From assembly GCA_036704025.1 (NCBI GenBank), contig DATNQL010000706.1:1-10482 (forward strand): a DNA stretch of 10,482 nt. The letters are read 5' to 3'. Source of the DNA: Stenomitos sp. (GTDB lineage Bacteria; Cyanobacteriota; Cyanobacteriia; Cyanobacteriales; Coleofasciculaceae). A program made the translations under genes and the position numbers. Of this stretch, positions 2,448 to 6,967 are shown piece by piece (position 1 is the first letter of the stretch; each line of letters starts with the position of its first letter). A model generated the notes under the pieces. It searched no databases. It saw nothing but the letters and a program-made list of their open reading frames with translations, and was not told where the DNA came from.

Positions 2448-3456
2448 CCATAACAAGCTGGAATCTGCCTCTTGATGACGCTCCAAGTAAGCTCAACACC
2501 CTTGGTTAGACATCGTTAGGTCAATTCTCTAAATATTGGCTACACATAGAACTATTACTTCCCCCTTGAATTTGGGAGTAAATGTGTAACACAGCAAAAG
2601 TGAAATGGTATTAGATGCCTGAGTTGATGAACTGGGATGACCCTTCAACGGATAGCTTTAGGAAGCTAAGACGTGGCAAAAGTGACTCTTGTATGCAGTT
2701 GTGAATTCCTGGGCAGGGTTTGATTTCCCTTTTGAATTTGGAATAAGAAATTAAATTTTTGAGTTTTAAGTTTTGAGTTAAAGAGGCTGATCCATGAATA
2801 CATTCAGGGTTTTTAAGCCCGATGCTCCAGCTATAGGTCTTTAATTCAAAAGTCATCACTCATCACTCATAATTCCATATAGCGGTAAATAATCATCTGT
2901 TTTCTTGAAAAACAGCAAGTTCTGCCCAAATGGATGAACAAGTGCTTGAGCCTTGTAGAGATGCACTGACACTGTAAGTCTGATGCAGATGCTTTTAAGC
3001 CTTATTATCCGTAATCCTACGGACTGGAGCCGCTTGTCTGGATTGAGTGTATCTATGTAATCTCCACAATAATTTAATTGCTGATTCAGCCGCTACGTAA
3101 TTTTACTGAATCATTCTACGCCTAATGGCTGAATCAAAAGGTACTGTATATCCACCTATAGAGGGATACACTTCAGTCAATACGGCTTAAATTGAGATAT
3201 TCTCCTTATGTTGAGGGCAAAGCCCCTGAAATGTATGCCGTTTCACTGGCGGCTGATTGAGGTCTTCAGCTTGAATCAGAGCCTTCCGGCAGAAAGAGTC
3301 ATGTTTAACTTAACCCATTATGGCAGGGAGTTTATTGATCGTGGCGATGAGGATGTTTCTAAGTGCAAGTTTAGCGATGCCTCTGGATTCAATACCTCAT
3401 CTGCAAGAGATAAACCAGATTCATACGCAGTTGCATTCATCCGTAGCACATTGAAT

Positions 3457-3483
3457 TTCTCCGCGTCGGGAGCGTCCCCCTGT
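3457..3483 (+). repeat. Copy A of a 27-bp direct repeat, TCTCCGCGTCGGGAGCGTCCCC(C/G)TGTC, with looser similarity continuing ~15 bp beyond it.
   Basis: The 22-mer TCTCCGCGTCGGGAGCGTCCCC matches exactly at 3457-3478 and 3677-3698. After one mismatch, TGTC also matches, and partial similarity follows (TCT..C..CTA). An exact 22-mer recurring by chance in 10 kb is very unlikely (expected roughly 1e-6). The repeat contains a small GGGA-GCG-TCCC hairpin. Confidence 0.8.
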
Positions 3484-3676
3484 CTGGGTGTCTATCTCAA
3501 CTACTCTGTTTGAACGCAACTCGGTATCAGTCCATCGGTCAATCGTTAATACTTTTTATAAAAAGAAAACTCAGCCAAAAAACCTTTGTGCAAAATCCTA
3601 TTGTTGCATCCATATAAAGAGAAATATGATGTGGCTGTAGGTGCGGTCAAAACGAGTTGGTGATGTGCAGAAAATC

Positions 3677-3703
3677 TCTCCGCGTCGGGAGCGTCCCCGT
3701 GTC
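3677..3703 (+). repeat. Copy B of the 27-bp direct repeat. It ends 18 bp before the first ATG of the vault-protein ORF at 3722.
   Basis: Same 22-mer plus TGTC as copy A, 220 bp downstream and in the same orientation. The two copies sit in different reading frames of any overlapping ORF, so this is a DNA-level duplication rather than a protein-level one. Confidence 0.8.
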
Positions 3704-3799
3704 AGTCTCAGCTAACCACTTATGACCACATCCTGTGGCTGTGAGCCTATTCTGGCTGATTTGGTGTTGTTAATTTACAAAGTATTGTTAAGAAAAAAA

Positions 3800-6478: not shown

Positions 6479-6526
6479 TCTTTTGCCTTTTCTCAGTTGG
6501 TTATCCCGTACTTAGTGAAACATCAA

Positions 6527-6554
6527 TCCCAGACTTCTCTATAGAAGTCTGGGA
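6527..6554. terminator. Candidate bidirectional terminator: perfect 12-bp stem with a 4-nt loop between the convergent MVP and response-regulator genes.
   Basis: TCCCAGACTTCT-ctat-AGAAGTCTGGGA lies 49 nt after the MVP stop (6478) and 51 nt before the response-regulator stop (6605). There is no U-tract, which is common for cyanobacterial terminators. Confidence 0.5.
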
Positions 6555-6604
6555 ACTGAACGGCTGGCATTTTAAACAATAAACGGAGTATTGGTTATCC
6601 TGAC

Positions 6605-6967
6605 TCAAACCACTGCCAAATTTACAGCACGGACAAGCTGTTCTCGAGAAAAAGGCTTCGTTAAGTAGGCATCAGCTCCTTGCTTCATGCCCCACAAACG
6701 ATCGATTTCTTGGTCTTTTGAAGAACAAATCACAATAGGAATTTTGGCCGTTGATGGGTTATTCTTGATGCGACGACATAACTCAAAACCACTCATTCCA
6801 GGCATTACCACATCAGTGACAATCACATCGGGTTTATGTTCAAGTGCCTTATTCAACGCCTCTTTAGCATTGTTAATCCGAATCACCGTGTGTCCCCCCT
6901 CTCGCAGGTAACCCTCCATCAACTCTGACTGAGAGGGATTATCTTCAACTAGTAATACTTTACTCAT
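6605..6967 (-). CDS. Single-domain CheY-like response regulator (receiver only, PilH/PixH-like).
   Basis: 120 aa, MSKVLLVEDNPSQSELMEGYL...PDVIVTDVVMPGMSGFELCRRIKNNP...IPIVICSSKDQEIDRLWGMKQGADAYLTKPF. The acidic pocket (ED), the phospho-acceptor Asp in VIVTDVVMPG, the conserved Ser/Thr (ICSS) and the Lys (LTKPF) are all present. The WGMKQGADAYLTKP motif is typical of cyanobacterial taxis-operon CheY-like regulators. Confidence 0.85.
   Translation of the reverse strand: MSKVLLVEDNPSQSELMEGYLREGGHTVIRINNAKEALNKALEHKPDVIVTDVVMPGMSGFELCRRIKNNPSTAKIPIVICSSKDQEIDRLWGMKQGADAYLTKPFSREQLVRAVNLAVV

What the first reader, a model, noticed from the sequence alone, without database searches (positions are those of the whole stretch)
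2448..6967. Vault gene sits in reverse orientation between a PilH/PixH-like CheY and a GAF-MCP: possible insertion into a taxis locus
The CheY-like regulator (6967->6605) and the MCP (2447->1) are both on the minus strand. They are the kinds of genes that are adjacent in cyanobacterial pil/pix/tax operons (patA-cheY-cheW-mcp-cheA). Here they are separated by ~4.1 kb made up of the oppositely oriented MVP gene plus a 1.2-kb non-coding stretch rich in repeats and palindromes, and no cheW lies between them. This looks like a foreign cassette dropped into, or next to, a taxis operon, or possibly a functional association between the vault protein and a signalling module.
Basis: inference. Interest (0 to 1): 0.55.

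Follow-up and report, generated by a model that had tools for sequence, protein, structure and literature searches.

The report
Resident vault gene splitting a CheY–chemoreceptor pair
A cyanobacterial vault-protein gene does sit between a CheY-like regulator and a chemoreceptor gene, but comparison with relatives shows that the vault gene is an old resident of this spot and that the signalling genes moved around it, so this is ordinary gene-order reshuffling and not a foreign insertion.

Summary
The gene layout is real. A truncated dCache-HAMP-GAF chemoreceptor (MCP) lies at 2372->1. A full-length major vault protein (MVP) gene follows; its true start is 3800, not 3722. A 120-aa CheY lies at 6967->6605.

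The window is a whole 10.5-kb contig. It is 88-97% identical to Allocoleopsis (Microcoleus PCC 7113), whose MVP is already in the literature.

Synteny in 12 related loci and gene trees suggest that MVP was inherited vertically in a Coleofasciculaceae clade, ancestrally just downstream of uvrD.
- CheY is its convergent neighbour in four lineages.
- The MCP-MHYT block lies between uvrD and MVP only in the Allocoleopsis/L110 branch, so that position looks derived.
- The 1.4-kb "non-coding" spacer holds the remnant of a TPM-domain gene that is intact in L110.
- MVP shows no compositional or mobile-element signal.
- 43 of 45 other MVP loci carry no MCP or cheW gene nearby.

- They are adjacent in the MVP-less loci L106 and L111, and in the MVP-bearing L052 and L104.
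- Both carry a conserved upstream motif (AGTGCATCTCYACAA) that I found nowhere else in the sequences fetched.

The parts
1..2372 (-). Chemoreceptor (MCP) gene, alpha type, cut off by the contig end. Domains dCache_3, HAMP and GAF; the longest ORF extends to 2447.
   Evidence: Pfam. 88% identical to the 984-aa MCP of Allocoleopsis franciscana PCC 7113, which starts at the equivalent of 2372 and ends in MCPsignal.
2897..2995 (-). Conserved upstream element of the MCP gene. Its core AGTGCATCTCTACAA lies at 2953-2967.
   Evidence: nhmmer and motif scans place the same element upstream of MCP and/or CheY orthologues in 8 lineages. It was found nowhere else in the ~1.7 Mb of fetched loci.
3051..3139 (.). 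Second conserved upstream block. It holds an inverted copy of the motif core (ATCTCCACAA, 3060-3069, plus strand).
   Evidence: 76% identical to L106 9654-9742 in the CheY-MCP spacer. Shorter matches lie upstream of CheY/MCP in L111 and L106.
3326..3418 (+). Remnant of the N-terminus of a TPM_phosphatase-domain gene, inside the spurious ORF 3208-3513.
   Evidence: tblastn with the intact 260-aa L110 protein gives 52% identity over 31 aa, E 3e-6. The same remnant occurs in L049 and L050. Frame-breaking indels appear against PCC 7113.
3418..3527 (+). Copy 1 of a ~110-nt dispersed repeat (21-nt core 3459-3479).
   Evidence: 74% identical to L052 7761-7862, which lies downstream of MVP there. The core is repeated at 3678-3698.
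3546..3638 (+). MVP-proximal upstream stretch.
   Evidence: 85% identical to PCC 7113. It is partly alignable with the MVP upstream regions of L110, L052 and L104.
3640..3735 (+). Partial copy 2 of the dispersed repeat. This insertion is absent from PCC 7113 and creates the false upstream ATG at 3722.
   Evidence: Alignments.
3800..6478 (+). Major vault protein gene, 892 aa, intact and under purifying selection.
   Evidence: Pfam, PDB, identical deposited protein P0001, dN/dS 0.06-0.08.
6527..6554 (.). Perfect 12-bp hairpin between the convergent MVP and CheY genes. It is a likely two-way terminator.
   Evidence: Terminator scan. Folding z-scores are -6.05 (plus strand) and -4.19 (minus strand).
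6605..6967 (-). Single-domain CheY-like response regulator of the PilH/PixH kind.
   Evidence: Pfam Response_reg 2.5e-28. 55-72% identical to the CheY in the cheY position of canonical patA-cheY-cheW-mcp-cheA clusters.
7455..7543 (-). Conserved upstream element of CheY, with two tandem motif copies (7501-7515 and 7529-7538) 28 nt apart.
   Evidence: The whole stretch 6968-7637 is colinear with the CheY upstream region of L052.
7777..9006 (+). Class-V aminotransferase gene. It is the conserved right-hand frame of the locus.
   Evidence: Pfam. Orthologues flank the locus in L050, L049, L052, L006, L106, L111 and L113.

Best explanation
The window shows one state of a small, rearrangement-prone neighbourhood framed by uvrD on the left (outside the window) and a class-V aminotransferase on the right.

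MVP is an old, vertically inherited gene of this neighbourhood. It has its own proximal upstream region. In the earlier-branching relatives it lies just downstream of uvrD. In four lineages the CheY gene is convergent on its 3' side.

In the branch leading to Allocoleopsis and L110, a block came to lie between uvrD and MVP. It contained the MCP, a stand-alone MHYT membrane protein, a 357-aa protein and some plus-strand genes (a TPM-domain gene and others). The TPM-to-MVP genes then decayed, leaving the 1.4-kb spacer. In the window's own lineage the 589-aa gene between MVP and CheY was also lost.

CheY and MCP therefore now flank MVP without MVP having moved. They remain a functional pair of orphan taxis-type genes, with no patA, cheW or cheA nearby. 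Each has its own copy of a conserved upstream DNA module (core AGTGCATCTCYACAA), so they are probably co-regulated as separate transcripts. Presumably they signal through a CheA/CheW encoded elsewhere.

Shown directly: the gene maps, trees, remnants and motif distribution. Inferred: the direction of the rearrangement, the co-regulation, and the signalling partners.
For: Gene arrangements (U = uvrD, V = MVP, Y = CheY, M = MCP, H = MHYT, T = aminotransferase):
- L006: U-SIMPL-V-T.
- L104: U-V-Y-M.
- L052: U-V-Y-H-M-T.
- L110: U-..-H-M-TPM+4 genes-V-p595-Y.
- PCC 7113 and L049: U-p357-H-M-V-p589-Y-T.
- L111: U-Y-M-T, without MVP.
- L106: U-CRISPR-H-M-Y-T, without MVP and with no MVP remnant.

Trees and divergence:
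- The MVP tree, rooted by about 35 other cyanobacterial MVPs, has a 99% clade containing exactly the loci above plus L019. L019 and L006 are basal. The branching order is L006, L104, L052, L110, Allocoleopsis, with 70-92% support.
- The uvrD and aminotransferase trees group Allocoleopsis with L052, and the uvrD tree also includes L110 (93% and 92%).
- Synonymous divergence from the window to PCC 7113 is 0.32 for MVP, against 0.40-0.55 for MCP, CheY and the aminotransferase. To L110 it is 1.01 against 0.98-1.25.
- In the MCP tree the window's MCP groups with L106, L108 and L110 (100% split). In the CheY tree its CheY groups with L052, L104 and L111, not with L106 (83.5%).

Other evidence:
- MVP GC3 is 0.40, within the range of its neighbours (0.40-0.50). 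No tRNA gene and no integrase or transposase domain in the window's ORFs of at least 60 aa that were scanned.
- The TPM-gene remnant is in the spacer.
- CheY plus ~670 nt upstream is colinear with L052.
- The motif is found at 14 sites upstream of CheY or MCP in 8 lineages, and nowhere else in ~1.7 Mb of loci.
Against: - The backbone of the MVP tree has only 70-72% bootstrap support. The trees are neighbour-joining trees on single genes.
- uvrD places L052 as sister to L110 (97.5%), whereas MVP and MCP place L110 with Allocoleopsis. Some recombination has therefore occurred, and the species tree is not firm.
CheY->MCP->MHYT are contiguous in the canonical order, inside the same uvrD...aminotransferase frame, with no MVP.
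- MVP dS against L049 (0.18) is well below that of its flanks (0.47-0.72). This hints at exchange of the MVP gene between close lineages.
- I could not tell whether the genomes behind L106 and L111 carry MVP elsewhere.
- Co-regulation through the motif is an inference from conservation only.
Confidence: 0.68

Rival explanations
1. An ancestral CheY->MCP->MHYT operon, as in L106, was split by insertion of the MVP gene (with the TPM and other genes) between CheY and MCP.
For: - L106 has CheY, MCP and MHYT contiguous in the same uvrD...aminotransferase frame, with no MVP and no MVP remnant.
- The window keeps the canonical order, CheY upstream of MCP, on the minus strand.
- The alpha-type MCP of L106 is the closest MCP relative outside the Allocoleopsis/L110 branch.
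- An 89-nt block upstream of the MCP is shared with L106.
Against: - MVP lies next to uvrD in L006, L104 and L052, which branch earlier in the rooted MVP tree.
- MVP-CheY convergent adjacency is shared by L104, L052, L110 and Allocoleopsis. This model would need repeated insertions at the same place, or further rearrangements.
- The window's CheY is closer to the CheYs of L052, L104 and L111 (77-82%) than to that of L106 (72-75%), and L106 falls outside them in the tree (83.5%).
- CheY and its upstream 670 nt are colinear with L052.
- MVP shows no compositional or mobility signal.
Confidence: 0.12
2. A deletion-only model. The ancestor carried two paralogous modules flanking MVP (uvrD | MHYT-MCP-alpha-CheY-alpha | MVP | CheY-beta-MHYT-MCP-beta | aminotransferase). 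Each present arrangement arose by differential loss, with no block moving.
For: - MCPs fall into two deep types. Alpha always lies on the uvrD side and beta always on the aminotransferase side.
- L106 and L111 can each be derived from such an ancestor by a single deletion that removes MVP.
- The window pairs an alpha MCP with a beta-associated CheY.
Against: - No sampled locus carries both MCP types.
- No remnant of a beta MCP or MHYT lies between CheY and the aminotransferase gene in the window.
- Given the rooted MVP tree, the alpha block would have to be lost independently in L006, L104 and L052.
Confidence: 0.12
3. The MVP-CheY(-MCP) linkage is kept by selection because the vault-like particle works together with this motility or taxis signalling module.
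For: - MVP and CheY are neighbours in four lineages whose MVPs have diverged to 85% identity.
- A preprint notes that bacteria with MVP homologues are gliding organisms (10.1101/872010).
- An inverted copy of the motif core (3060-3069, plus strand) points toward the TPM remnant and MVP in the window and in PCC 7113.
Against: - 43 of 45 MVP loci from other species have no MCP and no cheW within 10 kb. Only 10 of 45 have any receiver-domain gene within 6 kb, and outside the two Allocoleopsis-clade loci those are not orthologous to this CheY.
- No gene family is a conserved MVP neighbour across cyanobacteria.
- MVP and CheY are convergent, with a strong hairpin between them.
- L006 keeps MVP without the module, and L111 and L106 keep the module without MVP.
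- The full motif element is not found upstream of MVP.
Confidence: 0.05

Closest known systems
Cyanobacterial major vault protein homologues (e.g. Microcoleus sp. PCC 7113 K9WB38, Lyngbya majuscula F4Y3B4; Daly et al. 2013, PMC3762200)
   Same: The window's MVP is 95% identical to the PCC 7113 protein. It has the same full set of vault repeat, shoulder and cap-helix regions as eukaryotic MVP. Databases mislabel it 'colicin uptake protein', as that paper notes.
   Different: Nothing in the protein differs. The papers found do not describe its gene neighbourhood, which is what is analysed here.
Cyanobacterial Tax/Pix/Pil chemotaxis-like operons (patA-cheY-cheW-mcp-cheA). The order is known from Synechocystis (my own knowledge) and is seen here in L062.
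   Same: There is a 120-aa single-domain CheY, 72% identical to the one in L062. The MCP has the same Cache-HAMP-GAF-MCPsignal architecture.
   Different: No patA, cheW or cheA gene lies in the window or in the complete orthologous loci. The MCP is followed by a stand-alone MHYT protein. CheY and MCP each have their own upstream element, and their relative order varies between lineages.
Genomic islands or inserted gene cassettes
   Same: One gene in the opposite orientation interrupts two same-strand genes of related function, next to a long gene-free spacer holding a short dispersed repeat.
   Different: There is no compositional deviation and no tRNA, integrase or transposase in the window. 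The gene's phylogeny follows its flanks. The flanking 35-nt similarity (2956-2990 and 7504-7538) is the shared regulatory motif, not a target-site duplication.

Membership tests
Major vault protein (MVP) | Series of vault repeat domains followed by the shoulder domain | tested here: met
   Pfam Vault 3.6e-65, Vault_2, Vault_3, Vault_4, MVP_shoulder 1.3e-53.
Major vault protein (MVP) | Full-length colinearity with solved MVP chains, including the C-terminal cap-helix region | tested here: met
   phmmer against the PDB: query residues 19-874 match chain residues 5-850 of MVP chains, E 4e-290.
Major vault protein (MVP) | Assembly into 78-subunit vault particles | not testable with these tools
   This needs expression and electron microscopy. 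No structure prediction was run.
Major vault protein (MVP) | Associated vault RNA nearby | tested here: not met
   The Rfam scan of the whole window at E<=1 gave only one chance-level snoRNA hit. This is not a requirement for the protein family.
Cyanobacterial Tax/Pix/Pil chemotaxis-like operon | Single-domain CheY of the PixH/PilH kind | tested here: met
   120 aa, receiver domain only. 55-72% identical to the CheY in the cheY position of canonical clusters.
Cyanobacterial Tax/Pix/Pil chemotaxis-like operon | MCP with HAMP and MCPsignal domains | tested here: met
   HAMP and GAF are in the window. MCPsignal is present in the 984-aa orthologues.
Cyanobacterial Tax/Pix/Pil chemotaxis-like operon | Adjacent patA-type regulator, cheW and cheA | tested here: not met
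   No hits in the window other than the receiver domain of CheY. None is present in the gene maps of L049, L050, L052, L104, L106, L110 or L111.
Cyanobacterial Tax/Pix/Pil chemotaxis-like operon | Genes contiguous on one strand as one operon | tested here: not met
   CheY and MCP are 4.2 kb apart with MVP on the other strand between them. Each has its own upstream element.
Horizontally acquired cassette / genomic island | Base composition or codon usage unlike the flanks | tested here: not met
   MVP GC3 is 0.40, against 0.40-0.50 for its neighbours. RSCU and tetranucleotide correlations are within the range seen among the flanks. This is a weak test on 10 kb.
Horizontally acquired cassette / genomic island | Mobility genes, a tRNA target or flanking target-site repeats | tested here: not met
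   No tRNA. No integrase or transposase domains. The only flanking repeat is the regulatory motif. An IS605 TnpB-like gene is present in L049 but not here.
Horizontally acquired cassette / genomic island | Gene phylogeny and divergence at odds with the flanking genes | tested here: inconclusive
   The MVP clade and branching broadly match uvrD and the aminotransferase, and dS tracks the flanks against PCC 7113, L110 and L052. However, dS against L049 is lower than the flanks, and one node conflicts between the uvrD and MVP trees.

The most novel reading that the evidence does not exclude
The orphan CheY, the GAF-MCP and the stand-alone MHYT membrane protein form a previously undescribed sensory regulon of Coleofasciculaceae. 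It is held together not by an operon but by a shared ~100-240-nt upstream DNA module with direct repeats of AGTGCATCTCYACAA. The long-standing neighbourhood with MVP, including an inverted motif copy facing the MVP side, reflects co-regulation of the vault-like particle with motility signalling.
Probability: 0.06. Interest if true: 0.65.

Novelty: new member of a known kind. Interest (0 to 1): 0.22.

Why it matters
Bacterial vault proteins have no known function, so a real link to a signalling pathway would be a valuable lead. The evidence here makes that link unlikely. The neighbourhood is confined to one cyanobacterial family and is most simply explained by common descent plus local reshuffling.

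Three things remain useful:
- A worked example of how orphan taxis genes are shuffled around a stable gene.
- The correction of the MVP start and of the 'non-coding' spacer, which is a decayed gene.
- A conserved cis-element that marks CheY and MCP as a probable regulon and could be tested in the culturable strain PCC 7113.

Tried and rejected
- **Exact-protein look-up of MVP.** It failed with either start codon, although the same protein was then found by homology.
- **Metagenome scan with the MCP.** It returned one close relative and about 50 paralogous loci. These were useless for synteny, but they identified the CheY as PilH/PixH-like.
- **cheW, cheA, patA, beta-MCP, MHYT and SIMPL remnants in the three intergenic regions.** None found.
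- **A structured RNA in the spacers.** Rfam gave nothing. RNAalifold on 14 copies of the shared element predicted no pairs. I therefore treat the element as DNA-level.
- **A conserved partner gene of MVP across cyanobacteria.** Clustering of neighbours gave only a generic receiver-domain cluster and small lineage-specific groups.
- **The 35-nt direct repeat flanking MVP+CheY as a possible target-site or recombination scar.** Rejected, because the same motif lies upstream of CheY and MCP in lineages with other arrangements.
- **ORF 3208-3513 as a real gene.** Rejected because of frame-breaking indels against PCC 7113.
- **Literature search for the motif and for MVP gene neighbourhoods.** Nothing relevant found.
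Full report
**What is in the window.**
The 10,482-base window is an entire contig of a metagenome-assembled genome. NCBI labels it 'Stenomitos sp.'. Every gene on it, however, is 88-97% identical to Allocoleopsis (formerly Microcoleus sp. PCC 7113) and its relatives.

The genes, from left to right:
- **MCP.** A reading frame runs off the left end on the minus strand. It has dCache_3, HAMP and GAF domains. Orthologues of 984 aa add the MCPsignal domain and begin at the equivalent of 2372.
- **MVP.** A complete major vault protein gene lies on the plus strand (Pfam Vault 3.6e-65, shoulder 1.3e-53). 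It is colinear with solved eukaryotic MVP chains over residues 19-874, E 4e-290.
- **CheY.** A 120-aa receiver-only protein lies at 6605-6967 on the minus strand.
- **Right flank.** This holds a class-V aminotransferase (7777-9006, plus strand) and dephospho-CoA kinase (8989-9615, minus strand).

The MVP start is 3800, not 3722, because the upstream ATG lies in a ~95-nt insertion absent from PCC 7113, and the deposited protein has 892 aa.

**Is the CheY of the taxis kind, and is anything missing between the genes?**
In unrelated cyanobacterial contigs fetched with the MCP as query, the closest relatives of this CheY (55-72% identity, same length) sit second in clusters whose order I confirmed in L062. 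That order is PATAN-receiver protein, CheY, CheW, Cache-HAMP-GAF-MCP, CheA. So the CheY is PilH/PixH-like and the MCP has the matching architecture.

tblastn with PatA, CheW and CheA from L062 found nothing in the window except the receiver domain itself. The complete orthologous loci also lack these genes. This is an orphan CheY/MCP pair, not a truncated operon.

**The spacer 2373-3799.**
- It contains no Rfam family and no tRNA.
- Positions 2884-3415 are about 80% identical to PCC 7113.
- Inside that block, 3326-3418 is the remnant of the first ~40-60 residues of a TPM_phosphatase-domain protein. That protein is intact (260 aa) between MCP and MVP in L110. The same remnant occurs in PCC 7113 and L049. 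ORF 3208-3513 is therefore a decayed gene.
- A ~110-nt element (3418-3527) has a partial second copy at 3640-3735. It also occurs downstream of MVP in L052.
- Repeated 10-mers are in excess, and I attribute this mostly to that one element. Inverted repeats and hairpins do not exceed dinucleotide shuffles.

**Synteny.**
Notation: U = uvrD, V = MVP, Y = CheY, M = MCP, H = stand-alone MHYT protein, T = aminotransferase. All maps are in the window's orientation.

| Locus | Arrangement |
|---|---|
| PCC 7113, L049 | U, p357, H, M, spacer, V, p589, Y, T (L049 also has an IS605 TnpB-like gene after V) |
| Window, L001 | As above but without p589; only 126 bp and a hairpin separate V and Y |
| L110 | U, .., H, M, TPM + four small genes, V, p595, Y |
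| L052 | U, V, Y, H, M, T |
| L104 | U, V, Y, M, then an ABC transporter |
| L006 | U, SIMPL, V, T, with no signalling genes |
| L111 | U, Y, M, T, with no MVP; 95 bp between U and Y |
| L106 | U, CRISPR array, H, M, Y, T, with no MVP and no MVP remnant |
| L108, L113 | The MCP in other contexts |

Of the 45 MVP loci found in one-genome-per-species bacterial and archaeal genomes, only the two from this clade have an MCP within 10 kb, and none has cheW. Clustering of neighbouring ORFs found no conserved MVP partner.

**Which piece moved?**
I rooted an MVP tree with about 35 other cyanobacterial MVPs.
- It has a 99% clade made of the uvrD-linked loci plus L019.
- L019 and L006 are basal. The branching order is L006, L104, L052, L110, Allocoleopsis, with 70-92% support.
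- The uvrD and aminotransferase trees also group Allocoleopsis with L052, and uvrD includes L110 (93% and 92%).

On this rooting, U-V adjacency (L006, L104, L052) is ancestral. The position of the p357-H-M-TPM block between U and V is derived in the Allocoleopsis/L110 branch.

V and Y are convergent neighbours in L104, L052, L110 and Allocoleopsis. The window's CheY plus about 670 nt upstream is colinear with L052.

The MCPs split into two deep types (100% bootstrap). The window's type is shared with L106, L108 and L110. The window's CheY, however, groups with those of L052, L104 and L111, and the CheY of L106 falls outside them (83.5%). The two genes flanking MVP here therefore do not share one history.

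Other evidence that MVP was inherited with its neighbours:
- MVP's synonymous divergence tracks its neighbours. To PCC 7113 it is 0.32, against 0.40-0.55. To L110 it is 1.01, against 0.98-1.25. To L052 it is 1.25, against 1.16 for the aminotransferase.
- dN/dS is 0.06-0.08.
- GC3 and codon usage are unremarkable.
- A stretch about 100-130 nt upstream of the MVP start is partly alignable across arrangement types.

Together these results argue against a foreign MVP cassette.

**Caveats.**
- The trees are single-gene neighbour-joining trees.
- uvrD puts L052 with L110 (97.5%), whereas MVP and MCP put L110 with Allocoleopsis.
- MVP dS against L049 (0.18) is lower than the flanks (0.47-0.72), so some recombination has occurred.
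- Two alternatives keep modest probability: insertion of MVP into an L106-like operon, and differential loss from an ancestor with two modules.

**CheY and MCP as a pair.**
A 35-nt similarity between 2956-2990 and 7504-7538 led to a conserved element with core AGTGCATCTCYACAA.
- It lies 260-600 nt upstream of the start codon, in the sense orientation.
- It precedes the MCP gene in the window, PCC 7113, L049, L110, L104, L111 and L113.
- It precedes the CheY gene in the window, PCC 7113, L052, L104, L106, L110 and L111.
- Upstream of CheY it often occurs as two copies 28 nt apart.
- The exact 12-mer occurs 8 times in distinct loci, 7 of them at these sites, where about 0.2 would be expected by chance.
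- A profile of the element hits nothing else in about 1.7 Mb of fetched sequence.
- In L106, where CheY, MCP and MHYT are contiguous, only CheY has the element. This fits a single operon there.
- RNAalifold predicts no shared structure, so I read the element as a promoter or regulator-binding module.
- It is not found upstream of MVP. An inverted copy of the 10-nt core at 3060-3069 does face the TPM remnant in the window and in PCC 7113.

It gives no support for including MVP.

**Comparison with what is known.**
Cyanobacterial MVP homologues, including the PCC 7113 protein, were described in 2013 and were proposed to come from horizontal transfer involving eukaryotes (PMC3762200). A 2019 preprint noted that MVP-bearing bacteria glide (10.1101/872010). 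Neither paper analyses gene neighbourhoods, and a search for such work found nothing.

The signalling genes resemble the Tax/Pix/Pil systems in their parts. They fail the operon's defining features, because patA, cheW and cheA are absent and the genes are not contiguous.

**Verdict.**
The proposed event, a foreign MVP cassette inserted into a taxis operon, is not supported. The most likely history is local reshuffling and gene decay around a resident MVP gene. Interest is low. The shared upstream element and the MCP-MHYT pairing are minor new leads.

Noticed in passing
window 2953-2967(-), 3060-3069(+), 7501-7515(-), 7529-7538(-); also L050, L049, L052, L104, L106, L110, L111, L113: A conserved motif AGTGCATCTCYACAA, often as two copies 28 nt apart, lies 260-600 nt upstream of both the CheY and the MCP orthologues in 8 lineages. 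It was found nowhere else in the fetched loci. No RNA structure is predicted and no literature match was found.
   Followed up: yes
window 3326-3418 (ORF 3208-3513): Remnant of a TPM_phosphatase-domain gene that is intact in L110 8291-9073. The 'non-coding' spacer is partly a decayed gene.
   Followed up: yes
window, whole contig: NCBI assigns the contig to a 'Stenomitos sp.' MAG, yet all its genes are 88-97% identical to Allocoleopsis. The best Stenomitos MCP hits are only 42-44% identical. The contig is probably mis-binned, or the MAG is misclassified.
   Followed up: partly
L050 4912-5652, L049 4589-5332, L053, L106 13042-13779, L108, L110, L052 9192-9779: The MCP is followed on the same strand by a stand-alone ~246-aa MHYT-domain membrane protein in 7 of 10 lineages (not in L104, L111 or L113). 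This may be a sensor partner of the chemoreceptor.
   Followed up: partly
window ~540-640 (MCP residues ~575-610): The GAF domain has a phytochrome/cyanobacteriochrome-like stretch, DIYDGSYTACRFEILQHLQVKA. It has Cys-Arg where I recall bilin-binding GAF domains having Cys-His. Chromophore binding is uncertain.
   Followed up: no
window 6527-6554: A perfect 12-bp hairpin lies between the convergent MVP and CheY genes (folding z-score -6.05 on the plus strand, -4.19 on the minus strand). It is a likely bidirectional terminator.
   Followed up: yes
window 3418-3527 and 3640-3735; L052 7761-7862: A ~110-nt dispersed element with a 21-nt core, CTCCGCGTCGGGAGCGTCCCC. It lies upstream of MVP here and downstream of MVP in L052. 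It may be a miniature mobile repeat.
   Followed up: partly
L106 13890-15891: A CRISPR array (37-nt repeat GTTTCAATCCCTGATAGGGATTAAGTGGAATTTAAAC, period ~72) fills the gap between MHYT and uvrD in this MVP-less locus.
   Followed up: partly
L050 12934-14703, L049 14252-16018, L110 1129-2916: A 589-595-aa protein with no Pfam domain lies directly downstream of MVP on the same strand in PCC 7113, L049 and L110. It is cleanly absent from the window and from L001.
   Followed up: partly
L032, L046, L047 (Anaerolineae/Thermoflexales), L035 (Thiomargarita), L039 ('Actinomycetota' MAG): MVP genes 68-81% identical to the cyanobacterial ones occur in MAGs assigned to other phyla. This points to inter-phylum transfer or to binning errors.
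   Followed up: no
window vs L049: MVP synonymous divergence to L049 (0.18) is much lower than that of the flanking MCP, CheY and aminotransferase (0.47-0.72). This hints at recent recombination of the MVP gene between close lineages.
   Followed up: no
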